From the NCBI GenBank assembly GCA_030390025.1, contig CM059432.1, positions 65,226,001-65,290,000 of the forward strand: a stretch of DNA of 64,000 bases, written 5' to 3'. Within the stretch, counting starts at the first letter, position 1, and each line of letters starts with the position of its first letter. Source of the stretch: Squalus acanthias. Lineage: Eukaryota. This document shows positions 5,890-63,429 of the stretch, one piece after another. The notes under the pieces were generated by a model that worked only from the letters and a program-made list of their open reading frames with translations, searched no databases and had not been told where the DNA came from. Made by a program: the position numbers and the translations under genes.

Positions 5890-6490
5890 TCCATAACCTG
5901 TAGGATATGCGGCACATTCTTTGTTCCAGTCCTAATCAGGTCTCCTCCATCACCTCTTTTTCCGGTACATTGATGACTGTATTAGTGGCGTTTCCTGCTC
6001 TTGCCCCGAACTGGACAATTTCATCAACTTTGCCTCTAATTTCCACCCTTCCCTCGCCCTCACATGGTCTATCTCTGACTCTGCCCTTCCCTTCCTCGAC
6101 TTCCCTATCTCCATTTCTGGGGTTAGGCTATTGATCAATATACACTATAAGCCCACTGGTGCCCACAGCTACCGTGACTACACCTCCGCCCACTGTAAGG
6201 ACTATATTCGCTGCTCACGATGCGGTCTCCTCTACATTGGGCAGACCAAACGCAGATTGGGTGACTGCTTTCTGGAGCACATCCGTACAGTCCGCAGGCG
6301 TGACCCTGAGCGTCTGGTCACCTGTCATTTTAATTCTCCACATCACTCCCAATCTGACCTCTCTGTCCTTAGCCTCCTACACTGTTCCAATGAAACTCAA
6401 CGTAAGCTCGAGGAACAGCACCTCATCTGTCAATTAAGCACTTTACAGCCTTCCGGACTCAACATTAAGTTCAACAATTTCAGATCATAA
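5890..6490 (+). mobile_element. Penelope-like retroelement remnant (RT YIDD region joined by internal deletion to GIY-YIG endonuclease C-terminus)
   Basis: One open frame ~5936-6490: LFFRYIDDC...FLD...IHYKPT..HSY.DYTSAH, then YIRCSRCGLLYIGQTKRRLGD.F.EH...HFN...RKLEEQHLI..L.TLQPSGLN. Confidence 0.85.
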
Positions 6491-7382
6491 GAACATAAGA
6501 ACATAAGAAATAAGAGCAGGAGTAGGCCATTCAGCCGCTTATGCCTGCTCTGCCATTCAATAAGATCATGGTTGATCTGATCTTGGCCTCAACTCCACTT
6601 TTCTGCCTGCTCCCCATAACCCTTGACTCCCCTGTAGTTCAAAAATCTGTCTATCTCAGCCTTGAATATATTCAATGACTCAGCCTCCACAGCTCTCTGG
6701 GGTAGAGAATTCCAAAGATTCATGACCCTCTGAGAGAAGAAATTCCTCCTCATCTCCATCTTAAATGGGCGACCCCTTATTCTGAAACTGTGCCCCCTAG
6801 TTCTAGATTCCCCCACAAGGGGAAACATCCTCCCTGCATCTACCCTGTCAAGCCCCCTCAGAATCTTATGGGGTAAAAATTCAGTTGGTTGCGCCTCCCG
6901 TTAGCGCCTTAAATGGGCGCTAATGGGGCGTTAAGGCGCTAACGCCCGGGCGCAGCGCTGTTTGCGCCGCTCGAGAACTTAACTTGAGATTCTGCGGCGG
7001 CGCTAAAACTTACCGCTGCGACCACCTGCGCGCGCAGATTGTGACGTCATTCCGTGGTGCAACGCCCTTGGGGCGCCCCGGAGCGGAAATTGAGTGGCGC
7101 CCCCTGCCTTACCGCCTGGCGCTTCCAACGACCGGAAGACTGGAACGTTATCAATCGGTGTGGGGCTGGGGGGGGGCGCTATTTAAAGGGGGCCTCTTCC
7201 TGTCTTTTTCTGTGGTCGACATTTATGCACCACTCGTTCTGAGAGAGAGAGAGAGATTCGGAGAGAGAGAGAGAGAGACTTCTACATTGACTCAACGCTT
7301 TGTGAGGTAGTTTTGCCGAGTTCATCCTAATTTTGCTGCTACTTTCGTTGCTGTACCTCATTAATTTTCTGGCAAAGAGAAT

Positions 7383-8543
7383 ATGGGGGCTGCAATGATT
7401 GGGGGCGTCGTCCTGCTCCAGCTCAATCGGAGGAGAGTGAGACGCAGACAGAGAGTGGCAATGATGGCCAGACGGAGGAGGGCCATCAGGCGCATGTACA
7501 GGAGAGCTTACCCTCCCAGGGTATATCGTGAACAGCTCTCCTACATCCACATGTCCGAGGAGCTGTGTTTGCGAAGGCTGCGAATCAGCAAGGAGGTGGT
7601 CACTGAGCTCTGCCACCTGCTGCAGCCAGATCTGCAGCCTCAGCTGAGGTCCAGGACGTCTCTGTCGGTGACAGTGAAGGTCACAGTGGCTTTGAACTTC
7701 TACGCCACTGGCTCATTCCAAGCTGCTGTTGGGGACCTCGCCAATATCTCCCAGTTTGCGGTGCATCGCTGCATCCGACAGGTCACCAATGCCCTCTTCA
7801 CAAGGAGACGAGACTTCATCTCCTTCCCTATGACCCCAGACAAGCAGCATGACCGTGCTATGGGCTTTGCGAGGGTAGCGGGCTTCCCCATGGTGCAGGG
7901 CGCCATTGACTGCACGCATGTGGCTTTGCGTGCTCCGCGAGAGAATGCAGAGGAGTTCCGGAACAGAAAGGGGTTCCATTCCTTGAATGTGCAGTTGGTC
8001 TGTGACCACAGACAGGTGATTCTCGCTGTCAATGCCCACTATCCGGGCAGCTGCCACGATGCTTTCATCCTGCGCCAGAGTACTGTGGCAGAAATTTTCG
8101 AGGCATCGCATCAGCCAGTTGGTTGGCTTCTGGGGAACAAGGGGTACGCATTGAGCACCTGGCTGATGACACCGCTCCGTGCGCCAAACACCCCTGCTGA
8201 GCTGCGGTACCAGGAAAGCCAAGAAGCAACGAGGAACATTATTGAGCGCACAATCGGCGTGCTCAAACAACGATTCCGCTGTCTGGACCATTCCGGAGGA
8301 GCCCTGCAGTACTCGCCTGAGCAAGATTCCAAATTCGTAGTGGTGTGCTGCATGTTGCACAACATGGCAATCCTCAGGACGCAGCCAATGCCACCAGGCC
8401 TTGCAGCACCACAAGAGGAGGAGGAGGAAGAGGAGGAACAGGCCGAGGACGATGATCAGCAGCAGCACCAAGGCAGGAGGGCGGCCCACAATGGTCAAAC
8501 TGCAAGGGCCGTCCGTCAACGACTAATAGCAAGCCGCTTCTAG
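7383..8543 (+). CDS. Harbinger DDE transposase (HARBI1-like), 386 aa, uninterrupted
   Basis: Motifs [59 protein letters not shown]. Confidence 0.95.
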   Translation: MGAAMIGGVVLLQLNRRRVRRRQRVAMMARRRRAIRRMYRRAYPPRVYREQLSYIHMSEELCLRRLRISKEVVTELCHLLQPDLQPQLRSRTSLSVTVKVTVALNFYATGSFQAAVGDLANISQFAVHRCIRQVTNALFTRRRDFISFPMTPDKQHDRAMGFARVAGFPMVQGAIDCTHVALRAPRENAEEFRNRKGFHSLNVQLVCDHRQVILAVNAHYPGSCHDAFILRQSTVAEIFEASHQPVGWLLGNKGYALSTWLMTPLRAPNTPAELRYQESQEATRNIIERTIGVLKQRFRCLDHSGGALQYSPEQDSKFVVVCCMLHNMAILRTQPMPPGLAAPQEEEEEEEEQAEDDDQQQHQGRRAAHNGQTARAVRQRLIASRF

Positions 8544-8770
8544 GGCCCCTGCCAGTGCTACAAACACGAATCAACCCAGCACGCAACCCCTAAGCCGGCC
8601 AAGGCACCAATAATTCCAACCACCAGCCATATATATTTTGAATACAGAAACTTATTTATTGTACAAACTCTGTGTGTGTCAATTCCTCATGACAAACTCA
8701 TAGAAATAAACACAAAAAAACAGTCAATAACATAACTGGTTCTCACAACCTGGAGATAATGTCCAAAACA

Positions 8771-10856
8771 CTAAACAAAAGTTGGGCCATGAACCTCGGC
8801 CTTTAATAAAAAAATGACCAGCATTTTGGCACACCTCTTACTTTTTGCCCTTCGAGGATGATCTCCTTCCCTTGCGCACTTCCCCCTTCTAACCCTACTG
8901 CTCCTCCGTAATGGGACCTCAGTGGCTGCAGCAAGGCTGGTGGAAGGCTGCTGCTTGTCAGACCCTGACACTGCAGATGCCCCTGAAGGACGGCCTCGAC
9001 CACTTCTGGGCCTGGAGGGCCCGGCTGCAGACTGCACCAACTCTGCATGGGCGGCAGCAGTCTGTCCTACAGGCGGTGGCAAGTGCAGTGGAGAAGTGAC
9101 AGTGTTGGCAGCAGGAATGCTGTCATCGTGAGAGAGGACAGCAACTCCCTGCTCGCCCGACACACTGGCACTCCCACGGGGCAGCACTTCAGCATCCGGA
9201 GCAATTTGCCGGAGAACAGATTGCTGGCCTGCTGCGGCGCGGTGACAGCCCCGGGGACATGTGCACGAACCATCGAGGATGGCAGCAGTCAGTGCTCGCG
9301 TGGCCTCAATCTGAGTCTGCATGAGAGCAGTCTCAGATGGGTTCCTGGCAGCCAGTGACTGAATTGCAGCAGTAAGCTTTAGTGTGGCATCCGCCTGTGC
9401 TACAGCGAAGTGCTCCACACTCCTTGCCAGTGCCTCAATGCATTCGGGCACCCTTCCCACTGCACCCATGAGCTCAGTGTGCATGCCCACCGCCTGGCTG
9501 TTCATTTCTGCAATCAGCCGCTCCTCCTCTGCGTCCATTTCATTAGGAGTGTCTGGCATACTCTCCCTCTGGGGAGAAGGCTCCCGTTTTTCCCTCCCCC
9601 CCCCCCATGGCGTTGCTGCAGCCCGCTGGGTCCTGGAACTTCACCATCATCAGCCCCTTCCCCCCTGCTCCCCCGTTCTTCCCTCCCCCCCCAATGGCGT
9701 TGCTGCAGCCCGCTGGGTCCTGGAACTTCACCATCATCAGCCCCTTCCCCCCTGCTCCCCTCCGGGGAAGGCGTGTGCCCAGTGTGGCCATGGGCTTCCT
9801 CGGGAGAGGGTGGCACTGATGCTCCGGCTTCCTCTTCCTCCTCAGCTGCAGCATCACTCCCAGTGGCAGCTTCAGGGACCATCTCCTCAGCTGGTGAATC
9901 ACCATCTGAAAGCAGGGAGGTACAAGAGTGGCTTTAGCATGAGGACAGGGTGGCAGTAAGGGAGGAATAAGTGCAGCGAGTTAGCAAGTTGGATTGAAAG
10001 TGTCAAAGGCTGGTATTGTGAGGGACAAGTGGAAGGACAGAGGACAAAAAGGTGATGACCTTACCATTGCTGTCCACAACGGGGTCGGCGTCTCCAGTGG
10101 CGACGGGACCGATCACCCGGCTTGCCACAATCCTGTGGACGCGCTCCTCCAGATCGCTGAGATGTTGCAGCTGAAGCCGCCCTCTACCCGTCCGTTGCTG
10201 CTGTCTCCGATTATGAGCCAGCTTAGCCTGCAAGAAAAAGGACAGCATCTGAGTCAATATACAGCCATGGTCTTGCCTGATGTGCCTCCCATAGGTGAAT
10301 AGCCCTTACAATATACAGCCATGGTCTTGCCTGATGTGCCTCCCATAGGTGAATAGCCCTTACTGTATGCAGCCATGGTCTTGCCTGATGTGCCTCCCAT
10401 AGGTGAATAGCCCTTACTGTATGCAGCCATGGTCTTGCCTGATGTGCCTCCCATAGGTGAATAGCCCTTACTGTATGCAAAGTGTGGAATGTGTGTGTGT
10501 GTTTGATGAAAGGGCCATAGGTGTTGCATGAGTGTTGTGCATTGGGGTTTTAAGACCCTCTGGCCATAGAGTGAGGTTGAGATGGAGGGATGGAGAGGTA
10601 TTGAGAAAAAGCCACTCACCCTGACGACCCGAGTGAGGTCGTTGAACTTTTTGCGGCTCTGGACATGGGTCCTGGGCACCATGCTCCTGGAGGAGACGCT
10701 CTGAGCCACCTCCCTCCACACTCTTCTGAACTCGCGTGGCAAAGGCCTCATGCCACTCTCCGGGAACAGCATGCATCGTCTGCGCTCCACTGCATCAACC
10801 AGAGCATCCAAGGCCCACTCGGTGAAGCGATGAGCGCGTTCTCTCACCCTCTCCAT
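8771..10856 (-). CDS. Harbinger ORF2 Myb/SANT DNA-binding protein; exons 10856-10620, 10227-10065, 9905-8771, with one frameshift in a G-run near 9600
   Basis: Exon 1 MERVRERAHRFTEWALDALVDAVERRR..LF...W.EVA..V...RTHVQSRKKFNDL. GT-AG junctions of phase 0 and 1 keep the frame. Exon 3 needs a 1-nt shift to join ORF 8771-9559. Confidence 0.8.
9598..9760. repeat. 87-bp in-frame tandem duplication in Myb gene exon 3
   Basis: Two copies of catggcgttgctgcagcccgctgggtcctggaacttcaccatcatcagccccttc; peptide GSRGEGADDGEVPGPSGLQQRH twice. Confidence 0.9.
10258..10478. repeat. 54-bp minisatellite x4 in intron 1 of the Myb gene
   Basis: Unit cagccatggtcttgcctgatgtgcctcccataggtgaatagcccttac..; copies start ~10261, 10315, 10369, 10423. 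Confidence 0.95.
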
Positions 10857-11725
10857 GCTTGGCAGCAAAATGGATTACAGGTCTCTCCAGGCTGAGATTC
10901 AAGGCTGCAATGAGCAGGGTGTGGCTGGGGAGCAAGTGGCCCCCCCCGCTTTAAGAAGTGTCCGGCGCCAGTGTGTCTGTGTTCCCTCGCTAACTGGCAG
11001 CAGCTGCGCTGCGCTCGTGCGCTGAGGTAGCGCCTCACTCCTAGGCCTTTGCGCCTTAAGAGAGGTGTGCAGCGCCTAATTTAGCGCTCCACTCACCTCC
11101 CGGGGCGGTAAAAGTGATGTTTCCTGTCAGTGCCGATAATTAGCGCCAGGCGCTAATATTTGCGCGCGGACGATATTTGCGCCCCAAATGGGGCGCGACC
11201 TAATTTCTACCCCTATATGTTTCAATAAGATCACCTCTCATTCTTTTAAACTCCAATGAGTATAGGACCAACCTGCTCAACATTTCCTCATAAGACAACC
11301 CCTTCATCCCAGGAATCAACCTAGTGAACCTTCTCTGAACTGCCTCCAATGCAAGTATATACCTCCTTAAATAAGGAGACCAAAACTATATGCAGTAATC
11401 TGGGTGTGGTCTCACCAACGCCTTGTACAGTTGTAGCAAGACTTCCCTACTTTTATACTCCATCCTGCTTGCAATAAAGGCCAACATTCCATTTGTCTTC
11501 CTAATTACTTGCTGTACCTGCATGCTAACTTTTTATGTTTCATGTACGAGGACACCCAGATCCCTCTGTACCGCAGCATTCTGTAGTCTCTCTCCATTTA
11601 AATAATATTTTGCTTTTCTATTCTTGCTACCAAAGTGGATAACCTCACATTTTCCCACATTATACTCCATCTGCTAAATTTTTGCCCACTCACTTAACCT
11701 ATCTATATCCCTTTGCAGATTCTTT

Positions 11726-14700
11726 GGGCTCGATTTTGCCAGTGTGGGTGGGCTGGGGCGTGTCAGGTGGGAATCGTGTCAGGACCCCGACTCCGAAGTG
11801 CAGTGTTGAAAAATTGCGATTTTCCCCTAATTAGGCAATTGATTTCCAGCATGTGCGAACCCCTGGCCCAATGAGTCTTTTCATCCAGAAAGTCGCCTCC
11901 GATGACGTCATCAATGCTGCTGGATTTAAGGCCTGCAAGCAGCTTTGCTTCTTCTGGAGACTGGAAATGCTTTGGACATTGTATGAAGGACTTCATTTAC
12001 CGACCATGTCCACCAGCAAGCAAAAGTGTGCACCTCGCTTTGATGAGCCCTCCCTCCAAGCTCTGGTGCAGGGAGAAAGATCTAATAAGGAGGTGCTCTT
12101 CCCTTCTCAGGGAGAAAAAAGCCACCCCAGCAGACTAAAGATGTGTGGCTGCAAGTGGCCGAGGAGGTCAACTCCATATCGATGAGCCGCAGAACCTGGC
12201 TGCAATGCAGGAATAGGTTTCCTGACCTTCTCCGCACAGGAAAAGTGAGTATGACTTTCCCATCACCCTCAATCTGATCCCCATCGCCTCTCCTCACCAG
12301 CATTCTGCATTGCCAACCTCTTCCTCCACATCCCACTTGACACTTACATCCCTGCACCCTTAGCCATTGCCTCTGTCTCTATGGTCACATTCACTTAACT
12401 ATTCGACCATTCAGCCCTCACACTCTCTATCACTGTGATGCAACAACAACAACAACTTACAACACACAGGGAGGGCCCTTTGTCTCCTTTGTCTTCTTCT
12501 AAGCATCTGTGCTATGGATTCTCTATACTCACTCCTTCATTCTCACTCAAACTCCACTCTCATTGCAGGAAAAGAGAGCCACAATAAAAGGGAAAGAGCC
12601 ATGACAGGAGGAGGGCCACCCTCAGTAGCCCACCTGGGAGGAGGCAGCCCTGGAAAGCGCCGGGATCGAGGAGGATTCCCAAGTGGGGGACGGACAGACG
12701 GGCGCATCACAGCAAGCTGGTTACAGAATAGTTTGGCATCTCTCTCATTGACATTGCATGAGTCACTGATAATGAATCTGATGCTCTAACAGATTGACTT
12801 ATGATCATCTGCACTATTCAATGTGCATGTAACCTTGACCTCACATCTCTAACTCTTTCCTTTACTCCCCCACAGGACCATCGAAAGCCCCCGTCCCCAC
12901 TGTCCAGGAGGAAGAGCCTGAGCTTCCAGACTCCTCAGAGGAAGCTGCAACCTCTGAGGGCGCAGCGTCAGTAGAATTCAGCGCACTCAGCACCAGCGCA
13001 GACACTCACACCTCGGTGGGACCTTCGTGAGATAGAGTAGTGTTGGCACCTGGTGTAGCACAGCTCACAAGTGAGCATCAGCAGATGGTGGAGACAGGGT
13101 CCGCAGTGAAGAGTCCTCGTCGTAGGGCGCAGGACTCTGCCAGCTCGGCTCAGCTGCATGTCGACCCTGTGCCTCTGGGTCCATCCAGAAGGAGAGCGGT
13201 GCTGGAACTCCTGGAACAGGTGCAGGAGTCTCTGGCAGGTTTTGTCTCCAGGGTCGCTGCAAGTGTGGAGCGAATGGAGGAGTCCATCGCTAACATGAGC
13301 AGAGCCTTTCTGGAGGCATTGGCGCATGAACGCATCACCGCGGAAAGGATGGCAACCTCCGTGGAAAGGATGGCTAACTCCATGGTAAGGCTGGCTACCG
13401 TAGAGGAGAGGATAGCTACGGTAGAGGAGAGGTTGGCTACGGCCATGGAGGAGCTTAGTCGCCAGAGTATGGAAAACATGGTAATTGTTCAGAATAGAAT
13501 GACATCTCTTGAGGAGCAATGGTCAGCTATTGAGCATACAAACCAGACCTTCATGGAAGTCCTCTGGAGTAGGACTTCCAGTGCAGAAACGGGTCCTCAT
13601 GGCCCCCCTGAAGTGCAGCAAGGTGCTGTCAAGCCACTTGCTAGCTCTGAAGTGGGGCTGACCCATGAGCGGGATGTTGGTGGCAGACAACAAGGAAGTG
13701 GGGGCTCCTCTCCAAGCGCTCACACGACCATGCCACTGCAGAGCCCTCGGTCAAAGCCCCACCAGAGTCCTCACCCAACTGAGATGGGCGTCTCAGCCCC
13801 TGCACAGATGCAGGAGGAGCAGACTGTTGGCGAGCCCGCACAGGTTCGCCACCCCACAGGGCGTCGAGACAGGAGCAGCAAGAAAGTGAGCAAGGGGCCT
13901 CCACATCTGCCGAAGCCACAGGGAAGCACCACGTAGGAGCATGTATAAGAGGAAGATAAAGCAGAAGTAGTCACAAGGGTAGTCACTTGGGTGCTGTTAT
14001 GTTTTGTATTTGGACCAGCCATCATTGTCATTGTATTATAAACAGATTTGATGGCAAACTGTTGAAGTTGTGGCCTGTGTCATTTCGCAAATGGGACTTT
14101 CACATTGAGGGCTTAGGGTGCCTTGCAATTGTCAGTATGGTGGTCAGAGTGACAGGAATCCGTAGGTTCTTGTCCATTGTCGATGCTCTGGTAAGAAGTT
14201 GCGAGACAAAAGTGTTTGATTGTGCAGGCTAACCAAATCTGGCCAAGTTGAGTGCGTCCCTTGCATCCTGGGCAGCAATGTTGTCGCGCGCTGGCGCCTT
14301 CTGGCCTGTGCAGCTTCAGGTGGGTGACTAGCAGCTTGGCGCTCCTGTTGATGCTGCTGATGTTCATGGTTCTGCTGCTCCTGCGGCTGGTCTTCGTCCG
14401 AATCTGATGCCCAGGAGGAAAGGAATTAAATGGTCGCCATGCTTCTGGTATATACCTCAGTTGAGGAAGTCAAGGAGGGGAGAGGGGTTTCCCAGGAAGT
14501 CACACTGGAGATGGGTGTCAGGCTCCAAACTTCCACAACAATGAGTAGGCCTGCTAAAAGTTCACCCAGACCTGAGACAACAAAGTTCTGCCACCTGCAA
14601 ATGATCATCGGTGAAAACTCCTTTGTAATGGTGGAGCTGTAGCTGTACGTAAGCAATCCACTTGTGAGGCCGCCAGGATTACCTGGCATGTTCCAGAGGA

Positions 14701-14964
14701 GGCGTGTAGGATGGGGGAAATGTCTAAAAATTGGAAAGGCCTCTCAAAATGGGATAATAGAGGCAATTAAGTGATTATTAAGGGCCTTAAAGGCCTATCC
14801 CGCCTCTTGGAGGCGGGATGGAAATGGGGTCAGAAAACATGCTTGTGGGAAAATTGCTCAGAGGCGGGATGGAGGCGGGATCAGGCCTGCTGGCCATTTT
14901 TTTGCGATTTTACCACCTCCCACGCCTTCAAACCCGTCTCCTCGTGCTTGGCAAAATTGAGCCC
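11726..14964. mobile_element. Harbinger deletion derivative (family B, 3239 bp): Myb/coiled-coil gene on +, only a C-terminal transposase scrap on -
   Basis: TIRs GGGCTCGATTTTGCCA / TGGCAAAATTGAGCCC; TSD TTT; inserted in CR1. Myb exons 12006-12244, 12569-~12719, 12876-13936, with frameshifts and a TGA at 13028. Confidence 0.9.
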
Positions 14965-17180
14965 TTTGTGTCTCCTCATAACCTGCTTTCCCACCTATCT
15001 TTGTATCGTCAGCAAATTTGGCTACAGTACACTCGGTCTCTTCATCCAAGTCATTAATATAGATTGTAAATAGTTGAGGCCCCAGCACTGATCCCTGTGG
15101 CACCCCACTAGTTACAGTTTGCCAACCTGAAAATGACCCATTTATCCCGACTCTCTGTTTTCTGTTAGTTAGCCAATCCTCTATCTATGCTAATATTTTA
15201 CCCCCAACACCATGAGCTCTTATCTTGTGCAGTAACCTTTTATGTGGCACCTTATCGAATGCCTTTTGGAAATCCAAATACACTACATCTACTGGTTCCC
15301 CTTTATCCATCCTGCTCGTTACATCCTCAAAGAACTCTATGTTTCTAATAAATTTGTCAAACATGATTTCCCTTTCATAAAACCATGGAGACTCTGCTTG
15401 ATTGTATTATGATTTTCTAAATGTCCTGCTATTACTTCCTTAATAATGGATTCCAACTTTTTCCCAATCACAGATGTTAGGCTAACTGGTCTATAGTTTT
15501 GTGCTTTCTGTCTCCCTCCATTCTTGAATATGGGTGTTACATTTACGGTTTTCCAATCCGCTGGGACCTTTCCAGAGTCTAGGGAATTTTGGAAGATTAC
15601 AACCAATGCATCTACTATCTCTGCAGCCACTTTTTTTAAGACCCTAGGATGCAGGCCATCAGGTTCAGGGGATTTGTTAGCCTTTAATCCCATTAGTTTG
15701 CCTAGTACTTTTTCTCTACTGATAGTGATTGTTTTAAGTTCCTCCCTCCCTTTTGCCCTTGATTTTCCACTATTATTGGGATGCTTTTAGTGTCTTCTAC
15801 CGTGAAGACAGATAAAAAATATTTGTTCAAAGTCTCTGCCATGTCCTTGTTTCCCATTATTAATTCCCCAGTCTCATCCTCTAAGGGACCAATGGTTACT
15901 TTAGCTACTCTCTTCCTTTTTATATACTTGTAGAAGCTCTTACTGTCTGTGTTTATATTTCTTGCTAGTTTACTCTCATAATCTATTTTCTCCCTCTTTA
16001 TATTTTTTTAGTCTTCCTTTGCAAGTTTCTAAAAATTTCCCAATCTTCTGGCCTACCACTAATCTTTGCAACATTGTATGCCTTTTCTTTCAATTTGATA
16101 CCCTCCTTAACTTCCTTAGTAAGCCACGGATGGTTCATCCTTCTCATAGAGTCTTCCTTTCTCGCTGGAATATATCATTGTTGAGAGTTATGAAATATTT
16201 CCTTAAAAGTTTGCCACTGCTTATCTACAGTCTTAGCTTTTAATCTATTTTCCCAGTCCACTTTAGCCAACTCTGTCTTCATACCCTTGTAATTATCTTT
16301 ATTTAAGTTTAAGACACTAGTTGGAGACCCAAGTTTCTCACCCTCAAACTGAATGTGAAATTCTATCATGTTATGATCACTCTTCTCTAGAAGATCCTTT
16401 ACTATGAGATCATTAATTAATCCTGTCTCATTACACATTACCAGATCTAAAATAGCCTGTTTTCTGGTTGGTTCCACAATGTATTGTTCTAAGAAACTGT
16501 CCTGAATACACTCTATGAACTTGTCCTCAAGGCTACCTTTGCCAATTTGATTTGTCCAAAATGTATGAAGATTAAAATCGCCCACGATTATTGCAGTACC
16601 TTTCTTACAAGCCCCCATTATTTCTTGATTTATACTCTGTCCCACAGTGTTGCTCCTGTTAGGGGCTCTATAGACTACTCCCACCAGTGACTTCTTTCCC
16701 TTATTATTTCTTATCTCCACGCAAACTGATTCTACATCTTGATCTTCCGAGCCAAGATAATTTCTCACTACTGTACTGATCTCATCTTTATTAACAGTGC
16801 TACCCCACCTCCTTTTCCTTTCTGCTTATCCTTCCGAAATGTCAAATACCCCTGAATATTCAGTTCCCAGCCTTGGTCACCTTGCAGCCACGTCTCTGTA
16901 ATGGCGATCAGATCATAGCCATTTATTTCTATTTGTGCCATCAATTCATCTATCTTGTGCCGAATGCTGTGTGCATTCAGATAAAGAGCCTTTAATTTTG
17001 CCTTTTTACCATTTTTCCCTACTCTGACCCTATTTGCTGGTGCACTCTTATGCTTGTACGCTCTGTCCCTTTCTGTCACACTCTGGTTATCATAACCCCT
17101 ATCGCTACCCTGCACTATTGCCTTGTCCTTTCTCTTTAACTTTCTAAGTTTCCCCTCACCTGAAGCCTCCCCCCAACAAT

Positions 17181-17657
17181 TTAGTTTAAAGCCCTATCTA
17201 CAGCCCTAGTTATTCGAGTCGCCAGGACACTGGTCCCAGCACGGTTTAAGTGAAGCCCGTTCCAACGGAACAGCTCCCTCTTTCCCCAGTACTGGTGCCA
17301 GTGCCCCATGAATCGAAACCCATTTCTCCCACACCTCTTCTTGAGCCACGCATTCAAGTCTCTGATCTTATTGATCCTATGCCAATTTGCTCGTGGCTGA
17401 GGTAGTAATCCAGAGATTATTACCTTTGTGGTTCTGCTTTTTAATTTAGCCCCTAGCTGCTCATACTCACTCAGCAGAACCTCTTTCTTAGTCCTACCTA
17501 TGTTGTTGGTACCTACATGGATCACGACAACTGGATCCTTCCCCTTCCACTCCAAGTTCCTCTCCAGCCCCAAGGAGATGTCCTTAACCCTGACACCAGG
17601 CAGGCAACACAGCCTTCGGGACTCACACTCTCAGCTGCAGAGAACAGTATCTATCCC
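17181..17657 (-). pseudogene. CR1 ORF1 SGNH esterase-like domain (5'-truncated)
   Basis: VVVIHVGTNNI...VIISGLLP...LNAWL..C...GFRF..HW...NGLHLN, matching the GTND and DGLH motifs of CR1 ORF1 esterases (both Asp read as Asn here). Confidence 0.8.
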
Positions 17658-17678
17658 CAGCATTTGTGGAGAGAGAAA

Positions 17679-17720
17679 CAGAGTTAACGTTTCAGGTCGA
17701 TGACCTTTCATCAGAACTGG
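17679..17720 (-). ncRNA. Putative minimal type I hammerhead ribozyme (inverted copy)
   Basis: Minus strand reads AGTT-CTGATGA-A-AGGTC(ATC)GACCT-GAAAC-GTT^AACT with a perfect 5-bp stem II. Confidence 0.68.
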
Positions 17721-17982
17721 GGAAAGTTAGAGATGTAACAGGTTTTCAGAGAGCAGCTGTTGGTAATAATTCTGCTATTCCCATTTACACCTCCTTTTGA
17801 TCCATCTATAGTTTCTTTACTTATCCCATTACCATCTCCTTTTGCCTCGCACCATCATCCCTTTTGTCATTTAATCTCTCCTGCCTTCCAGCTTATCACA
17901 GACCTTCACTTTTGTTCTTTCCTCCCCTCCCCCTTAACCTGCCTCTGTACTTGTTTAAAACCTGTTACATTTCTAACTTTTT

Positions 17983-18024
17983 CCAGTTCTGACGAAAGGT
18001 CATCGACTTGAAACGTTAACTCTG
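17983..18024 (+). ncRNA. Putative minimal type I hammerhead ribozyme
   Basis: AGTT-CTGACGA-A-AGGTC(ATC)GACTT-GAAAC-GTT^AACT: core CUGANGA and GAAA, stem II, palindromic ACGU stem III, stem I AGTT/AACT. Confidence 0.65.
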
Positions 18025-18025
18025 T

Positions 18026-21000
18026 GGGCTTGATTTTAATAGCCCTGAGGAGACGGGTTTGAAGGCGGGTCTGTTGGGAAAATCAGGAAAAATGGCTTCA
18101 GACATCCAACCCGACTCCATCCTGCCCCCACCCGATTTTCCTGACTGTCTGTTTATCCGCTCCCAAACTGACCCGTCTCCAACCGGTGGGACAGGTAGTT
18201 AAAGCAGTTAACAGTCTGTTAACTCCCTTGCTAATCCTATTTACATAGTGGTTTCCCATTTTCCTGCTTCTGGCTCCTGTTTCCCAACTTGTCAGAAACA
18301 GGCCAGGTTCAAGGAGACGAGTTGCTAGAGGACATGATTTGTCTTTATTGGTGGAGCACTTTAACAGCGTCCCTGAAACATGACCGACATTCAAATGCAA
18401 CAACTTTGCTGTTGTCAGTATGGGATAACATTTTGCACCTCTACTGACCTTCTGACTGTTCAAGTTGGCACCCATCTGCAGTGTGTCATGAATGGAATAA
18501 TTTCAGGCCACTTCGACTGTGCGCTTGCAAGATTGTTACCTCAAATGAAATCTATAGCAAGGGGATGGGAAACATTTATGCCCTCTCATCCTGGTCCTCA
18601 TAATCGGGGGAGTAGCAGCCACGTGGCTCAGCACAGATCTTCCTGGGAAGAGGAGTAGGAGGAGGATGAAGGGAGCCTTGCATGCCCTGTTGTGACCAAT
18701 GCAGCATCCCTCCAGTTCACTGCTGCCCATCAAGCAGGGTATGCACACTGCCATGCCACACTACCATAAGCTTACTCTTCAACCATGGGTGGCCACCATA
18801 TGGCTCTGTAATTGCAGGCAACACTTGTCCAACGTCATACTTCATCTCTGCTGTACGCCGTTATTTCCTATCACTTTTACCATCAGCATTACAAATGCAA
18901 GTCGACCCTGAGCCCTAAATGCGTTTTTGCCATTTCCCATAACACATAGGCCACACAATCAACTGTTTGACATAATTTACCTTTAACACATGACAAAAGG
19001 ATAATATACCAGCAAGAGCCAGAAAAAAAAGAAATATCACCCAAGTGAGTCCCCTTGTGACTATAGGTGCTTAATCTTTCTCTTACACGTGCTTCTATGT
19101 GGTGCTTCCCCTGTGGCTTCAGCAGATGTAGAGGCACCTTGCTGATTAGGATGCTGCGCCTGCTTAGACACCTTTGGCGGGCATCCTCTGGGTTTGGGAG
19201 CCTGGGAGGGCTCTTCAACAGTCTGCTCTTCCTGCAGCTGTGCAGGGGCTGAAACGGCCATCTCAGTTGTCTCTGCAAAGTGGGTCTCTGACCGAGGGCT
19301 CCACAGTGGCATGGTTGTGTGAGCGCTTTGAGAGGAGCCCACACTTCCTTCTGTCCTGCCAACAACATCCCTCTCATGGGTCAGCTGCACCTCAGTACTG
19401 GCAAGTGGCAGGAGAGCACCTTGCTGCACTTCAGGGGGACCATGAGGACCTGTATCTGCACTGGCAGTCCTCCTCAAAAGGACGTCCATGAAGCTCAATA
19501 GCTGCCCATCGCTCCTCCAGAGATGTCATTCTATTCTGAACAGTCACCATGTTTTCCTGACTCTGGCGACTTCTTTCCTCCATGGCGGTAGCCATCCTTT
19601 CCACGGAGGTATCCATCCTTTCTACGGAGGTTGCCATCTTATCCATGGTGGTGCGTTCATGCGCCATTGCCTCCACCATGGCAGTGCTGATGTTAGAGAT
19701 GGACTCCTCCATTCTCTCCACACTCGCACTAACCCTGGAGGCAAACCCTTCCAGACACACCTGCACTTGTTCCTGTCTTTCACGAACTGCTCTTTTTCTG
19801 GATGGCCCCAGAGGCACAGCATCTGCATGCCGAGGACTCTCCACTGCTGTCGCTGTCTCCACCATCTGCTGATGCTCACTTGTGCGCTGTGATAGACCAG
19901 GTGGCAACACTACTCTAACTCGCGATGGCCCCACCGAGGTGTGTGTTGCTGCGCTGGTGCTGGGTGCGCTGAGTACTGGTGACGCTGGTCCCTCAGAGGC
20001 TTCAGGTTCCTCTGAGGAGTTGTCTGGGTCTTCGTCCTGGATCGTGGGGAGGGGGGCGCTCGATGGTCCTGTGGGAGAGTAAAGGCTTGAATTAGACATC
20101 TGATATTGATGTAGCAGACACATCCTTTTGAGCAGATGATACAAAGTGATTCTCTATGAACATCATATTCCATTGCTTTCTGAGAGGGATGAAACTCTAT
20201 TATGTCACCAGCTTCCTCTAGTGTGCCCGTCTCTCCATCGCCCACTTCCAGGTCTTCGCCACCTCCAACAATCTCGTTTGCTGCCTCCTCAGCACTGGTC
20301 AATGTTGCAAGGGTAGGTGTTCTTCCTCCAGTCATTGCTCTCTCCCTCTTATTGTGGGCTATCTTTTCCTGCAAGGAGGTGTTTCAGCCACAGTGATGGA
20401 GTGAGTGTGATTAATCCCTACCATAGAAGATTTGAAGCAGACGAAGATGTGGTAAGGTGCCAAGAGGAAGCTAGCTCCCTGTGCGTTGTTAGTTGTTGTC
20501 ACTGCACGACAGTGAGGGCGAGTCTAAGGGGTTCATAGGCAGGATGCTGAAGTGATTCAGTGCAGAGACAGAGATGGATAGGTAAGGGTGCAAGGGAAGT
20601 AAGGGTAAGGTGAGGTGTGAAGGAGGAGGCTTACAACGCAGAGTCCTGGTGATGAGAAGAGAAGGGAAGCAGAGTGAAGGCAAGTGTGCTGGGATACTCA
20701 CTTTTGATGTTCTCACAAGATCATTAAACCTTTTTTGGCACTGGATCCATGACCGTGCATAAATGGACCTTGCGCTCACCTCCTGAGCAATGCGCAGCCA
20801 GGCTGCCTTGGTCTGCTGAGGAGACTTCCTCCAGCCATCAGGCGGGAAGAGAATCTCCCTGCGCCCTCTGACAGCATCCACAAGAACTTGGAGGGACTCA
20901 TCATTAAACTGAGGAGCTGCCTTGCCTCTGGAAGAAGTTATAGCATTTAAATCAAGTGCAGGAAACCACAATAGAAAGGCTCAGGCTGGATGGCAGCTCT

Positions 21001-21203
21001 AAAAGCAGCTGCTATTATGATGTCATCAGAGGCGGCCAGCCGACCCGATCCCACTCATTGGACCGGCCAGCACGCCTCCATGAAATTAACAAGCTAGTTT
21101 AATAAAAATCGCAACTCTGCAGCTGTTCCCACCGGAAGCAGCTCCCGAACCCGCCCACCATGCAACCCGACTCCAACTCGCCTTGGGTATTAAAATCGAG
21201 CCC
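18026..21203. mobile_element. Harbinger deletion derivative (family B, 3178 bp): Myb/coiled-coil gene on -, transposase largely deleted
   Basis: TIRs GGGCTTGATTTTAATA / TATTAAAATCGAGCCC; TSD TGT. Myb exons ~20941-20702, 20368-20209, 20068-~19061 (APQFNDESLQVLVDAV..RREILF...W..IA..V...RSWIQCQKRFNDL); start appears mutated to ATA; frameshift near 19495. Confidence 0.9.
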
Positions 21204-21439
21204 TGTTTCTCTCTCCACAGATGCTGCCTGACCTGCTGAGTATTTCCAGCATTTTCTGTTTTTATTTCAGCCTTTCAGCATCTGCAGTATTTTGAAATGG
21301 AGCTGCCTAAAATCTTTAAGAGAATAAATAAAACATAGGAAATGATAAAAAAATCATCAAGAATCTTGATTGTTATGACATTATTTATTTTCAATGAGTT
21401 CCGAACTTCAGTAGTTTAATGGTCATGAAAGTTTCTTCC

Positions 21440-35094: not shown

Positions 35095-35316
35095 CGATAG
35101 CAAAATACTGCGGATGCTGGAAATCCGAAAAAACAACAGAAAACGCTGGAAAAACTCAGCAGGCCAGGCAGCATCCGTGGAGAGAGAAACAGAGTTAAAG
35201 TTTCAGGTCAAAGAAAGGGGGAGCACAGGGTCTGACGAAAGGTCTTCGACCTGAAAGGTTAACTCTGTTTCTCTCTCCACGGATGCTGCCTGGCCTGCTG
35301 AGTTTTTCCAGCGTAT
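35095..35316. mobile_element. 222-bp palindromic Penelope-derived element with hammerhead-like core and 14-bp TSD
   Basis: ~66-bp near-perfect inverted arms (35144-35209 / 35248-35313); CTGACGAAAGGTCTTCGACCTGAAA at 35232; TSD TCTCCATGAGAATA (35081-94, 35317-30). Confidence 0.8.
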
Positions 35317-35884
35317 TCTCCATGAGAATAGTTCACTTCACCAAAGGGGCTGTAGGAGTGCTGTATCAACTTCTGGATGAAGACCTGTAGCCACGATCAT
35401 ATGCCTGGCCAGCTCTGTCTGTGGCTGTAAAAGTTATCACCTCATTCAATCTCTATGCTATTGTCTCCTATTAAGCAGCCATAGGAGACCTGTGTAATAT
35501 CAGCCAAGCTGCCATATGAGCAGGCATTTGTCAGGTAACTGACACCATTTTTAGGAGAGCTGAGGAATTCATCCAACAGTAAATGATGGCAAGGCAGCAG
35601 CACAATACAGCCATACAGTTTTATCACATTGCTGAGGCCACCTATCTTGGAATCTCATTGTTCAGGCCCTTTTGGAGTGCATAGTTGGGAAGGACACAGC
35701 AAGTTACCACTATGTGCGTTACATGATTGGGAGCATATTGCAGATTCCCTCCTGGTCTATCATGCAGTGAAAGCAAGCCTTTATGAGCCTTGACAACTCG
35801 GGTTTCACTGCTCAGCTGCTTTTCTTGCAACTCGCAGAGGGGTCATTATTCATGGTACTGGATGAGCTAAAATTTCCTCCAACT

Positions 35885-54469: not shown

Positions 54470-54640
54470 ATGCAAAAGCAAAATACTGTAGAGGCGTTCA
54501 GCAGATCAGACAGCATCTGTGGAGAGACCTGAAACTTTAACCCTACTTTTCTCTTTCCACAGATGCTGCCTGATCTGTTAAGTCTTTCCAGCATTTTCTG
54601 TTTTTATTCAGCATTTTTGTAGCTATATTTCAGCTTTTCT
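54470..54640. mobile_element. Degenerate copy of the palindromic Penelope-type element
   Basis: cagcatctgtggaga...tccacagatgctgcctga arms; hammerhead core lost. Confidence 0.6.
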
Positions 54641-58527: not shown

Positions 58528-59858
58528 AACTTTAGGAGCCTGGAGGATCGATAAAGGCTGCCCCTTATTGGTGTAACAAGGCTGCCATCTCTTTGGTCTA
58601 AATCCACCAATAAGGAAGGCATCTCTTAATCCTTCAGACCGATGAAGCTCAAAACACTGAAGCCAGTGAGAGAAGAAAATTGCAAACTAGTGCATCAATT
58701 TCAAAAACAGCTTTGCAGACCAGATATTAGGAGCATATGAGCTGAATCTGATTTGCAGCCATGTATTCAACAATCTTGCTATAGTGCACAAATAATTAAT
58801 TTACAATAAATTCAACTAGAATTATTGCTTAATGCTTAATCAGCTTCTTATGGCAAATTCTTGGTATGACACAGCGTCTTGTCATAATATGCAAGCCACC
58901 TGCTAGTATAATCCAATGCACCAAACATTTATTGATACTGCCGCAGAACTTCTCAGCCCTGAAAGGTCCTAGTTTTTATACCTTTAAGTTTTTGAAGATA
59001 GAGCTATTAACCAATCATCATCAAAGGAAGAATGGCACAATCTTAAATCATAATATGGTGAAAGCGATCCAATGGAATGTTAATAAACAAGTAAACACAC
59101 ATTGTCTGGGGTCTGAGCTGTCCTTACACACATTAGCCAGACATTCTTAAGATGAAACAACAATGAAAATGCATTTATTATGAGACATCAATTAACTAAC
59201 CAACATCATGTGAACTGATCTCCAAGCACGTAATATACTAATTGATAGAAAATGCAAAATTCGTACTGCTGTGAACAGATTGTTACCTTTGAAATAGCAT
59301 TAACTAATTATATTAGTTGTGATGAAGCAATAGAAACCTTTTGAAACATGAACCATCAAAACATCAAAACAAAACTTTTAATGCCATAATGGGCTGAGTA
59401 TCACTCCTTCCACTGGTCGAAGTTCTGCCCATTGCGCTAAACCTGCCATGAGTCTGACCCGTCTTCTTACTCACACACAGTGGGCTCCTGGCAGAATCTC
59501 CAAAAGGAGCACTGGGGGCCTTCCATCCATGCTCCAGGGATGACTTCCACTCATCTCCTGCCAGAAGTCGAAGGCAGCAAAATCAGCCGAGTTATCAGGA
59601 CCTCTGCCATCATTTACATGGAGTGGTGAATAGGTGGCCGGCAGCCTTTCCTGCTGTCTCAGGGGGATTAAAAAACAGGTTGGGATGCGAAGAAATGATA
59701 AGCCTTGATTTCCCTGCACTCCACTGTCCAAGTTTGCAAAATCCATCTTAGTAAGTATACTTTTCATACTTTAAAAATAAATCAGCACACATTTCCCAAT
59801 TTGTAATACTCCTTTTTGAGCCTAGAATCATCACTCAACAATGGAAAATCATACCTAC

Positions 59859-60131
59859 CTTGTACAATGATGGACGCTGAGGATTGGATGGAATCTTGAT
59901 TGTTACTGGCATGACAGATGAACTGGCCGTGGTCCTGGAGGGTGACGTTGCGAATAAATAGGCCACCTGAGGAAGTGGTGGTGTACCTGGAGTGTGTAGG
60001 GAGCAGCTCTCCATTCCCTTTAGTCCATGTAACCCGGGGCTGGGGATGCCCAATGGCACTGCACTCCAGAGTGATACTTGATCCGACTAGAACCTCAGTG
60101 TTTTGTGGCTGAATCACAAAACTGGGCTTGG
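59859..60131 (-). CDS. PXDN: Peroxidasin-family internal exon (complete Ig domain: KPSFVIQPQNTEVLVGSSITLECSAIGHPQPRVTWTKG...SASIIVQ)
   Basis: Acceptor ttttctgctctAG, donor GTAGGT; 273 bp, phase 1-1. Splices in frame to the upstream exon (A+CC = Thr). Sequence matches the peroxidasin motif FVIQPQNTEVLVG.S.TLECSA.GHP.P. Confidence 0.92.
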
Positions 60132-62744
60132 CTAGAGCAGAAAATTGTGGCACATTAAAACACTCATTTTAAATATTCTATACTTTGGTTGATTAACATT
60201 CCTTAACTGCCAAACTAGGTAGACTAGGTGTACGGTATTTTAGGGTTAACGTGTAAGGGGTGGATTCTTATCTTCACAGCAGGGCCCTACTGATATAAAT
60301 CTGCCTTAATGCCGACCCTTATGTTGGGGTCATTTGGAATAGAAAATTCTGCAAGTGATTCAGCTGGACCATTGCTGTAGCACCAGAAGAGATGGCTGGC
60401 CAATTAAATGGGGCTTCTAGATGAGCTCCAAAGAGGACAACAACACGCTTTTTAGGCCTCAGCCACTATTCAAGCCCCTCTTGAATCGAATTTGGGGACT
60501 TACTCTCATTGCTTCAGGGTCTATTTCCACCTTTCTTCTGGCTGTTCCTGGGGTTGATACATACAGTGGCAGTAAGGAGAGAAATCGGATTGAAACCCAA
60601 GACCCACATCACCCACTGGCATTTACATGCAGCAAGTGGGAACGGGGCAGATCGCAGCCATTCCAGTAGGGACAGGGGGAGGGAAATTGATGTCCGGCGG
60701 AAACATGGTGGGTTTTGTTTGATGCTTCCCCATTTCCATCCCGCCAATTTTTGGTGGAACAGCAATGGAATATCCAGCTCTTGAGAGTCCCTATCACATA
60801 TTCCTTTTAGACTACACCAGGCCAGTTAAAATGATCAGAAGCAATCTCTGTGCTTTTGGGATGATTATCAGTATCATCCATAAATATGTCCCTTAAAGCA
60901 GAACTAAGATAACTTTTAAAATAGCACTGTCTTTATGAAAGCATGTTTGCTAATCATCTCCCATTATTTTACAAACACAATAACATAAATCACATTGGAA
61001 CATGACATTGCATTACTTATGCGCTCTCTTATTGTGATGAAAATGATACAATGAACTGCTTGGTATTTTCCAATCCCAAACAGAAAAAAGCTTGAAAAAT
61101 TTTTCTTGAAGAAAGTGATAGTTTAAAGAGAATGTGATCAGTCAGCAATGACTTTCTATTCATTGTTCCTTTTAATATGGGCCTATTGAAGATCCAAGAC
61201 ATTAGATGCCATCAAATTTGAAAAACATTGCCTCACCTAAAACTTCCCAAGTCTGATTCATCTTTTTAAAGTTATGCAAATTGTATTGAAATTGATATGA
61301 AAACACTCTGGTATTCAAAAAAGGCATCATCATTTATATTCCACAAAAATCAGACTTGTAAGCAGATGAAACAGAACTTTAAAGAGATGAGGACAGGATT
61401 GGGCATGACTGTAAGGCTTCACATGGGAGAACAGCCCACCGTAATTTGCTTACACCTTCCTCCCCCTTTAATTAGAACGTGCTCCACCTATACTTTAATT
61501 AAACAGGAAAGAGTAAAGAAAATACTTTTCATTCTAAGTTCAGCAGGCTTCAAACGTTGGAACGGCATCACAGGCCACCCCAATCCAGCTACTCACAACA
61601 TAAACTACGTGTGTCTTTGGGAGAGCTGTCATATCAAACATTCACAATGTTCGATATTAATTTTGCTTCTCATTTTTATATTTGAATTCAAATATTAGTG
61701 CCAATATGTCAACAATTTTTCTTTAGGCAACCTCAATCACGTGAATTTCACACTGAAATTCAGACTTGTACTGTAATTGTATTTTATGCTCTATCTGAAC
61801 AAATGGTCACATTTTAAGAGCACAATGTAATCTGACAGTAAACTGTGGGCTGTGTGATAGCATGCAGTTATAATGCATTTTAGTGCGTTACATGTTTTAG
61901 GTCTGTGGACACTCCTGAATCAAGAGTATGCCCATACTGTCAAATATCCAATTATACAATATTGGAACAATAGGAGCCCTTGTGATCTAACCTGCACTTA
62001 TTAGCCATTAATTTCTATGGTGTTCTCTTGATTGTCCACCATACCTTCAGCAGAAAATCTGTGGAATCCACAGAGAAATGGTGTAAAATCCATTTAAGCT
62101 GTTTCTCAGGAGCTTCCACAGATCTTCCACCAGATTTATGCCAGACGACCGGGAGGACCACCGGGGAAATTAATCCCGCTTGTCTTTTACATGTGCCCTC
62201 ACATGTGTTCCTCCAGTTTATCTAAAGGCAGAATAAAATAATTTGGTGAGATGAGGCTAGAAGTGAATCATAAATTGCTTTATTTTGCGGACTGCATGTG
62301 AACGAATAGAGTAACTAACAGATGTAATCAAATCTCACTTTGATTCAACTGCTGTTATTCTCCCAAAATAAATAAGGGCATCCTGCCTTAATGGACCTGG
62401 GTGAGACAATTGACCCACATTGCATCAGTTACAATAGACTGTGAGCTGTGATGTTCTGCAAACTAGCTCATCTGGCTTTAATGCACATCTTCAATGCCTG
62501 CAACCTATGGCTTTATTTTAAAATCAGTGCAAAAGTCACTTTATTTTAAAACAGACACTAATTTAATCTAAATTCCTTTCCATAAAGAAAGAAAAAAATT
62601 AATGATCCCAAAACGTGATACAAAGTACAGCTTTTTAACAATTCAACATAAAACTGCTGTGAGAATAGGACAGCAAGCAAGAAAACATTGGACAAATAAA
62701 ACAGGAAAGAAATAAAGAACACACTAATGTGGATGATTTCTTAC

Positions 62745-62914
62745 TTGGAGTACCAAAGTATCGGAGTAAAACGCCTTGGGTTGTGGCCTCTCCCACTACA
62801 TTTTTGGCCATGCACTGGTATGTCCCCTGGTCAGATTCCTGTGTGTTCTGGATCATTAAGGTACCATCATCTAGTAAATTCAGACGAATGTCATTCTTCA
62901 TGTGTAATTCATTG
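62745..62914 (-). CDS. PXDN: Peroxidasin-family internal exon (C-terminal part of an Ig domain: [56 protein letters not shown])
   Basis: Translation closely matches vertebrate peroxidasin from recall ([29 protein letters not shown]). Acceptor ttttattctAG before 62914 and donor GTAAGA after 62745; 170 bp, phase-1 end. PXDN vs PXDNL paralogue not resolved. Confidence 0.9.
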
Positions 62915-63429
62915 CTAGAATAAAATAGAGATGTAAACAGTCAAAACGGTCTCAGACTAATTGAAGGAATGGCTGTATTACATCTTTGTGAACTCTTCTG
63001 CTTAACTTTGGGTAAAACACAAAGATCAGGGGAAAGAATTTCTCTGGTTGCTGTGTGTAGCAAAATTGTAAATATATTGAAGCAAAAATCTGTGGCTGTT
63101 TTGGCACATTCCCAGTGTAACTTCAGTGGAAGTAGATTGGAAAGGCGAGAAAGTGTACCAGGATCAAGATACACCTTGGCACAAAAATTTTGGGGGGGCG
63201 CAGGTTGGAATCCATATGCCTAAATGGTGAGGCCTGAGGTGCCCCTGATATTGGGAGTCGGGCATCAGCCAGCAAAGTGTAAACAAAGATTGGGCCAATG
63301 CTAGCATTGTAGCTACCCTCAGGCAAGTGAGGGCCTGGGAGGGAGAAACGGAGGCCGGGGAGGGGGGTGCGGGAATCCAAAGCTTGGGGGGAGGGGGTCA
63401 TCAGAGGCAGTGTCAGGTCGGGAGATCAG

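What the first reader, a model, noticed from the sequence alone, without database searches (positions are those of the whole stretch)
17658..18025. Two back-to-back minimal hammerhead ribozyme motifs in an inverted Penelope-type terminus
Seen: both arms read CTGAYGA-A-stem II (AGGTC/GACYT)-GAAAC-GTT^AACT, with AGTT/AACT closing stem I; one arm is on each strand (17720-17679 minus, 17983-18024 plus). Known: Penelope-like elements carry minimal type I hammerheads whose short palindromic stem III is thought to need dimerisation, and an extra nucleotide after A9 is tolerated in some natural hammerheads. Inference: the minus-strand copy is sense to the peroxidasin pre-mRNA, so the intron could self-cleave. 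The inverted arms could also fold into a long hairpin that silences the ribozyme.
Basis: partly seen in the sequence, partly recalled or inferred. Interest (0 to 1): 0.72.

Follow-up and report, generated by a model that had tools for sequence, protein, structure and literature searches.

The report
Fold-back Penelope stump with muted hammerheads
The two ribozyme motifs are real, but they are mirror-image ends of one broken copy of a very common jumping gene in a shark-type genome, an arrangement published in 2014, and the mirror copy is predicted to pair with the ribozyme and keep it from cutting the host gene's RNA.

Summary
Observation confirmed. Both arms carry a minimal type I hammerhead motif that fits the published Penelope-like element (PLE) consensus. 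They are two copies of one sequence: 69-nt arms with 5 differences, set head to head. This is the inverted, 5'-truncated pLTR arrangement typical of PLE insertions. Opposite-strand pairs 100-700 bp apart and the extra base after A9 were both reported in 2014.

The family is very abundant in three organisms' DNA runs. This copy is decayed: a CR1 LINE cuts its left arm and a 3.2-kb Harbinger-type element splits its right arm.

Self-cleavage of the intron is unlikely. The antisense arm is transcribed first and is predicted to sequester the motif (stem II probability below 0.0001; 40 kcal/mol to free it). The window holds no intact same-strand partner, and no locus-specific conservation is seen. 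Cleavage was not tested.

The scan noted this kind before, in this genome and in two others. Ordinary; new only as one more cartilaginous-fish example.

The parts
17658..17746 (-). Inverted, truncated copy of the PLE terminal repeat (left arm); outer end cut by the CR1 LINE
   Evidence: family contigs run on past 17658 with the tail found at 21227-21256
17682..17718 (-). Minimal type I hammerhead motif, host-sense; predicted cut between 17686 and 17685
   Evidence: fits the consensus of Fig. S3 of PMC4209133
17743..17746 (.). Inversion junction: four T shared by the inverted arm and the forward copy (microhomology)
   Evidence: 3 of the 32 contig pieces listed table 8 start at 17743; sequence
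17743..18025 (+). Forward, 5'-truncated copy of the PLE 3' end (pyrimidine-rich pLTR part plus hammerhead)
   Evidence: family contigs cover it and join it to the arm in canonical order
17985..18021 (+). Minimal type I hammerhead motif, antisense to the host gene; predicted cut between 18017 and 18018
18026..21203 (.). Later insertion of a PIF/Harbinger-type DNA transposon (terminal inverted repeats, 3-bp TGT duplication, Myb/SANT ORF, no transposase found) that splits the right arm 8 nt after the predicted cut site
21204..21294 (+). Rest of the right arm, with the full 3' tail
6488..17657 (-). 5'-truncated CR1-type LINE abutting the left arm; itself split by two Harbinger-type insertions (about 6870-11213 and 11727-14971)
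   Evidence: the CR1 clade label is recalled from the esterase/APE/RT order and the 3' microsatellite, not from a family search
5900..6487 (+). Internally deleted PLE RT / GIY-YIG ORF fragment ending at the CR1 3' end; possibly part of the same original insertion (not shown)
59857..60144 (-). Last peroxidasin-family exon in the window (second Ig domain, GT donor); the finding lies about 42 kb into the following intron

Best explanation
The two hammerhead motifs are mirror copies of the terminal repeat of one truncated insertion of a high-copy retroelement family, most likely Penelope-like, that sits in an intron of a peroxidasin-family gene and is predicted to be catalytically silent there. 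Shown: motif anatomy, inverted duplication, high-copy family in several organisms, canonical family order, later CR1 and Harbinger-type insertions, and host exon strand. Inferred: during integration the element's reverse transcriptase copied about 370 nt of its 3' end and added an inverted shorter copy joined through a 4-nt T microhomology. The motif is inherited cargo whose job in the active parent would be slow, dimer- or protein-assisted cutting of tandem element transcripts. Predicted: in host pre-mRNA the antisense arm is made about 240 nt before the sense motif and locks it in a 69-bp duplex, so no cut occurs. The copy then drifted neutrally.
For: Fit to the published consensus, including the extra base and the C-G-U-U ending that 15 of 56 listed motifs share (counted by eye). 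Opposite-strand pairs 100-700 bp apart and an inverted 5'-truncated copy at the 5' end are described PLE features. 28,980 / 44,094 / 39,400 contigs were laid from DNA-type runs of 3 organisms. Loose ends at 17658 continue with the tail of 21227-21256 (30 of 30 letters in 3 of 4 runs), and loose ends at 17746 continue with the spacer end. Two more fold-back copies lie in the window, one with a 14-nt flanking duplication and the tail on one end only. A PLE RT/GIY-YIG fragment lies at 5900-6487. Hairpin z-score -10.5; stem II probability 0.0000 in 5 of 5 snapshots that contain it; freeing the motif costs 40.1 kcal/mol; the double-hammerhead dimer is -10.9 against -19.8 for two misfolded monomers. 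Arm differences inside and outside the motif are 2/37 and 4/55, p=1.0.
Against: No PLE ORF is contiguous with this pLTR: the fragment is 11 kb away across the CR1, so the PLE label rests on motif, architecture and neighbourhood. No target-site duplication can be read, because the left end is lost. Nearest-neighbour folding ignores tertiary contacts, proteins and ADAR editing, and no known active minimal hammerhead was folded as a control. None of the 13 positions where this copy differs from the family majority falls in the motif (chance 0.17), which does not exclude weak selection. Both cores are intact, though that has probability 0.25-0.37 at this divergence.
Confidence: 0.88

Rival explanations
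1. The host-sense motif cuts the peroxidasin-family pre-mRNA often enough to affect splicing or mRNA level, as a dimer with another copy or with help from PLE protein.
For: Core, stem I and stem II are intact and host-sense. The Anolis PLE hammerhead cleaves when the element's protein is added. Intronic ribozymes with proposed roles in mRNA biogenesis exist (passages).
Against: Predicted sequestration by the earlier-made antisense arm. The only other minus-strand arm with part of the motif lacks CUGANGA and G16.2. Low activity of such motifs even as dimers. No reads ended at the cut site in Anolis RNA-seq. No sign of locus-specific constraint.
Confidence: 0.04
2. Fold-back geometry is a selected safety catch: solo host-sense copies do cut pre-mRNAs and are purged from introns, while head-to-head copies survive because each motif is preceded by its own antisense copy on either strand.
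For: The geometry holds for both strands. 3 of 3 family insertions in this intron are fold-backs. A preprint reports that tandem hammerhead repeats are depleted from Xenopus introns (passage).
Against: n=3. Inverted pLTRs also occur in Naiad elements that lack canonical hammerheads, so the integration mechanism alone explains them. Even without the antisense arm, stem II is rarely formed in the model (0.001 and 0.018).
Confidence: 0.07
3. The palindromic unit is itself a mobile non-autonomous element (retrozyme-like or MITE-like) that is copied whole with a fixed centre.
For: It is compact and bounded by inverted repeats; the family is very abundant.
Against: The three insertions in the window have different centres and arm lengths. 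Family contigs leave the reference at 17746 and continue in canonical order (141, 240, 299 and 23 loose ends in the four runs). No tandem units.
Confidence: 0.04
4. The motifs are chance matches.
For: Rfam gives no hit; the isolated 42-nt motif folds no better than shuffles (z -1.4 and -0.7).
Against: 0 hits in 200 random sequences; full match to the published consensus; among the 40 variant rows shown the only core position is N7 (47-62%).
Confidence: 0.01

Closest known systems
Minimal hammerheads (min-HHR) in pLTRs of metazoan Penelope-like elements (Cervera & De la Pena 2014, PMC4209133)
   Same: CUGANGA plus one extra base, 5-bp helix II, GAAA, palindromic C15.2-G16.2 with no loop III, GUU triplet, 4-bp helix I, U-rich 5' flank. 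Pairs on opposite strands 100-700 bp apart are reported there, and Fig. S4A shows a 5'-truncated PLE with a second motif on the opposite strand.
   Different: The 10.1-11.1 pair is A-U, not the usual G-C (at least 2 of 56 listed motifs also have A-U). No cartilaginous fish is among the 56 motifs of Fig. S3. Activity is untested here.
Canonical EN+ PLE insertions with an inverted pLTR and a one-sided tail (Arkhipova et al. 2013, PMC3846280; Craig et al. 2021, PMC8557442)
   Same: Head-to-head inverted, 5'-truncated copy beside the forward copy; tail on one end and a flanking duplication in the sister copy at 35.1 kb.
   Different: Stump only, with no ORF between the arms; left end and any duplication lost at the CR1; right arm split by a DNA transposon.
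Poseidon element PAc of Anolis (Frangieh et al. 2024, PMC11167929)
   Same: PLE with a hammerhead near its 3' end and a tail beyond it.
   Different: PAc is intact and active in vitro, and its ribozyme is protein-assisted. Homologues of the ORF fragment here carry the Neptune-type CX2-5CXXC linker (20 of 27).
Non-LTR retrozymes (Li et al. preprint 10.64898/2026.07.22.740005)
   Same: Non-coding, type I hammerhead, PLE-derived; reported in one chondrichthyan.
   Different: Defined by head-to-tail tandem units; this is a single head-to-head pair.
Conserved intronic hammerheads of amniotes (RECK type; passages in PMC6155905)
   Same: Type I hammerhead sense to a host intron.
   Different: Those are canonical motifs conserved at orthologous sites; this is a minimal motif in a decaying high-copy repeat, with an antisense copy upstream.

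Membership tests
PLE minimal hammerhead | Catalytic core CUGANGA ... GAAA ... NUH | tested here: met
   both arms
PLE minimal hammerhead | One unpaired base between positions 9 and 10.1 | tested here: met
   A at 17707 and 17996; feature stated
PLE minimal hammerhead | Helix II closed by a standard 10.1-11.1 pair (G-C in most members, A-U in some) | tested here: met
   5-bp helix, A-U closing pair, so not the commoner G-C; 10.1 is G in 25-48% of family depth
PLE minimal hammerhead | Palindromic 15.2-16.2, helix III absent | tested here: met
   ACGU with no loop
PLE minimal hammerhead | Short helix I | tested here: met
   4 bp
PLE minimal hammerhead | Compensatory changes across family members | tested here: inconclusive
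   one search gives single-site shares only, 40 of 81 rows shown; 10.1 A>G is compatible with pairing but one-sided, and changes at 15.2/16.2 and 17698/17699 look like CpG decay
PLE minimal hammerhead | Self-cleavage as dimer or with protein | not testable with these tools
   all listed runs are contigs, which cannot show RNA ends
EN+ Penelope-like element insertion | Inverted 5'-truncated copy adjacent to the forward copy | tested here: met
EN+ Penelope-like element insertion | RT plus GIY-YIG ORF upstream of the pLTR | tested here: inconclusive
   ORF fragment 5900-6487 has PLE homologues (E 3e-56) but is separated from the pLTR by the CR1
EN+ Penelope-like element insertion | One-sided tail and target-site duplication | tested here: inconclusive
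   left end lost in this copy; both seen in the sister copy (35081-35094 / 35317-35330)
Neptune clade | CX2-5CXXC linker between RT and EN | tested here: inconclusive
   deleted in the window's fragment; found in 20 of 27 homologues; no tree made
Non-LTR retrozyme | Two or more head-to-tail units each with a full hammerhead | tested here: not met
Domesticated intronic hammerhead (RECK type) | Canonical monomer fold with a helix III | tested here: not met
   no helix III, no Rfam hit
Domesticated intronic hammerhead (RECK type) | Conservation at the orthologous site across species | not testable with these tools
   no genome held; laid runs keep mostly repeated sequence

The most novel reading that the evidence does not exclude
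Head-to-head integration is a built-in safety catch. Any read-through transcript meets the antisense copy before the hammerhead, so fold-back copies are harmless, while solo host-sense copies cut pre-mRNAs and are purged. Fold-backs would then be how this family fills shark introns, and strand bias among intronic copies would be the first genome-scale proof that PLE minimal hammerheads cleave in vivo.
Probability: 0.07. Interest if true: 0.55.

Novelty: new member of a known kind. Interest (0 to 1): 0.14.

Why it matters
As it stands it matters little: one decayed copy of an abundant repeat in a described arrangement. It extends the published list of minimal hammerheads to a cartilaginous-fish family, which I did not find described in the searches made. 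The family's size would allow a cheap test of an open question, whether these motifs cut RNA in vivo, by comparing strand bias of solo and fold-back copies in introns.

Tried and rejected
1. Rfam scan of 15000-21000 at E<=5: no hammerhead family, one chance snoRNA hit.
2. No whole genome is held, so copy number, junction variety and strand bias could not be counted.
3. Pattern scans of metagenome and viral contigs: 5 and 1 loci (L006 matches L001 in contig length and range). None resembles this family beyond the pattern (best E 0.03) and none matched the PLE ORF fragment. Not used as relatives.
4. Sequencing runs: no RNA holder listed. Run X16 is only guessed to be RNA and no silent control stretch was laid, so it says nothing about expression. 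Its lower shares at 3 of 4 CpG sites are not interpreted. No place where many molecules begin or end was found, which contigs cannot show anyway. No listed piece bridged the inversion junction, but these runs drop rare sequence, so this is no evidence.
5. Covariation could not be counted: one search gives no linked changes and hides 41 of 81 rows. That the hidden rows lie below about 9% is my inference from the smallest share shown (8.6%). Contigs were gathered by likeness to this sequence, which favours a conserved core.
6. Alternative register with a cut after UUA: rejected, it needs a fourth A in the GAAA box.
7. Search for later peroxidasin exons with 5 chondrichthyan proteins: none in the window. 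149 ORFs were scanned against Pfam out of 672 of 45 aa or more.
8. The paper devoted to dimer cleavage of these motifs (Lunse et al., PMC5785218) is not held; I saw only its title and a review's summary. It may list shark sequences. File 1 of the 2014 supplement and the preprint's supplements were not seen and may bear on novelty.
9. No known active minimal hammerhead was folded as a control.

Full report
Observation. On the minus strand, stem I runs 17718-17715, the CUGAUGA box starts at 17714, an extra A follows at 17707, a 5-bp stem II with a 3-nt loop spans 17706-17694, then come GAAA, C15.2, G16.2, U16.1, U17 (17686) and the 3' strand of stem I (17685-17682). The plus-strand copy has the same parts at 17985-18021. 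A strict descriptor hits only these 2 places in 64 kb and none in 200 random sequences of the same dinucleotide make-up. They are one sequence twice: arms of 69 nt with 5 differences, 210 nt apart. Rfam has no match at E<=5; my reading is that a motif without helix III falls outside its models.

Surroundings. The right arm does not end at 18025. A 3178-bp element with terminal inverted repeats, a TGT duplication and a Myb/SANT ORF, but no transposase remnant, is inserted there, and the arm resumes at 21204 and runs to about 21294. The left arm is cut at 17658 by the truncated 5' end of a LINE whose collinear pieces reach back to 6488 and are split by two more Harbinger-type insertions (the CR1 label is recalled). 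At the other end of that LINE lies an internally deleted RT / GIY-YIG fragment (5900-6487) whose best named relatives are shark and ray proteins (27 hits among 391 candidates, best E 3e-56). 20 of those 27 carry the linker motif that Craig et al. give for Neptune elements. Whether fragment and pLTR were one insertion is not shown. The host exons, on the minus strand at 62734-62925 and 59857-60144, match chondrichthyan peroxidasin-family proteins (96-98% for the second exon) and end in GT donors. No later exon is in the window, so the finding lies about 42 kb into an intron of more than 59 kb, if the gene continues. Identities suggest the peroxidasin-like paralogue; no tree was made.

The family. 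Two more insertions lie in the window, at 35.1 kb and 54.5 kb. Both are head to head, with other centres and without an intact motif, and the first has a 14-nt flanking duplication and the tail on one end only. Laying 4 of the 24 listed runs on 17600-17950 gave 28,980, 44,094 and 39,400 contigs from DNA-type runs of three organisms and 1,977 from a run guessed to be RNA. Loose ends at 17658 (386, 579, 885, 59) continue with the reverse complement of 21227-21256, letter for letter in 3 of 4 runs. Loose ends at 17746 (141, 240, 299, 23) continue with the end of the spacer. So the normal order is spacer, arm, motif, tail, and this locus is a forward stump plus an inverted shorter stump. Three of 32 listed pieces start at 17743, which marks four shared T at the junction. 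Of the 40 variant rows shown (41 hidden), those inside the motif are N7 (47-62%), 10.1 A>G (25-48%), one loop base, and the four CpG bases of stems II and III (1.5-19%). No invariant core base is among them. This fits a conserved core but is biased by how contigs were gathered, and linked changes cannot be read. This copy differs from the majority at about 13 of 293 positions, none in the motif (chance 0.17).

How it most likely works. In an active parent the motif would cut tandem transcripts slowly, as a dimer through the ACGU palindrome or with the element's protein. Cervera & De la Pena found no monomer activity and low dimer activity. Frangieh et al. found cleavage only with added protein, no need for it in insertion in vitro, and no RNA-seq reads ending at the site. 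At this locus the geometry works against cleavage. In the host-sense transcript the antisense arm is made first. The region folds into a long duplex (z -10.5), the motif is 96-99% paired to the other arm in 6 of 6 snapshots, stem II has probability 0.0000 in the 5 that contain it, and forcing the ribozyme fold costs 40.1 kcal/mol. The same holds on the plus strand. The double-hammerhead dimer scores -10.9 kcal/mol against -19.8 for two misfolded monomers. Without the antisense arm, stem II is still rare in the model (0.001 and 0.018), so the model is hard on these motifs in general, and I had no active control. No intact same-strand partner is in the window; the rest of the gene was not seen. 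The arms differ at 2 of 37 positions inside and 4 of 55 outside the motif (p=1.0), and two intact cores are expected with probability 0.25-0.37 at this divergence. Silence is predicted, not measured.

What is known. Cervera & De la Pena 2014 (PMC4209133; main text parts 1-2 of 4, supplement file 2 parts 1-2 of 3, file 1 not seen) report dual motifs 100-700 bp apart on opposite strands, the extra base between 9 and 10.1, the palindromic 15.2-16.2, and a truncated PLE with a second motif on the opposite strand. 15 of their 56 motifs end in C-G-U-U as here (counted by eye), and none is from a cartilaginous fish. Arkhipova et al. 2013 (PMC3846280, passages) and Craig et al. 2021 (PMC8557442, passages) describe the inverted pLTR, the one-sided tail and the head-to-head junction as typical, also in Naiads that lack canonical hammerheads. 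Frangieh et al. 2024 (PMC11167929): parts 1-2 of 4. Retrozyme preprint (10.64898/2026.07.22.740005): part 1 of 5 and passages, supplements not seen; it includes one chondrichthyan. Reviews PMC6765202 and PMC6155905: passages. Lunse et al.: title and a review's summary only. Searches for a description of this shark family listed none by title or abstract start. Earlier notes of this scan describe the same kind in this genome and in two others. One gave me the lead to PMC3846280, which I checked.

Verdict. A real, correctly read pair of PLE-type minimal hammerhead motifs in a described fold-back arrangement, in a decayed copy overlaid by two later insertions, and most likely silent. New member of a known kind; interest 0.14. 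The boldest reading left open is that fold-back geometry is a selected safety catch, testable by strand bias among intronic copies (probability 0.07).

Noticed in passing
window 35081-35330: Second fold-back insertion of the family, with a 14-nt flanking duplication, the full tail on the left arm only, and a motif broken at 15.2 (plus) or lacking its 5' half (minus).
   Followed up: partly
window 54473-54636: Third, more decayed fold-back stump with only the 3' half of the motif.
   Followed up: partly
window 5900-6487 and 6488-17657: The CR1-type LINE joins a PLE ORF exactly at its stop codon on one side and a PLE arm on the other, with the ORF's 3' UTR and the arm's tail both missing. It may have replaced a tail-to-tail PLE segment; this could not be tested.
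   Followed up: partly
window 6870-11213, 11727-14971, 18026-21203: Three Harbinger-type insertions within 15 kb with 3-bp duplications TAT, TTT and TGT; the last two are about 70% alike over 2.1 kb.
   Followed up: partly
window 17717-17718: Hundreds of family contigs per DNA run (e.g. 202 and 157 in X5) leave the reference at the 5' edge of stem I with mixed sequence (agreement about 0.35). Many subfamilies may share only motif plus tail, or many copies may be truncated there.
   Followed up: no
L003 2086-2118 (+); L002 2501-2533 (-); L005 297-329 (-): Unrelated metagenome contigs with the same core ending; L003 can form a 4-bp stem II and may be a minimal hammerhead of another eukaryote.
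   Followed up: no
window 7365-8540 (+): Uninterrupted 392-aa DDE_Tnp_4 (Harbinger-type) transposase frame, with a Myb/SANT ORF on the opposite strand at 10257-10874.
   Followed up: no
window 17678-18025: The predicted 69-bp intronic duplex would be a substrate for A-to-I editing, like other inverted repeats.
   Followed up: no
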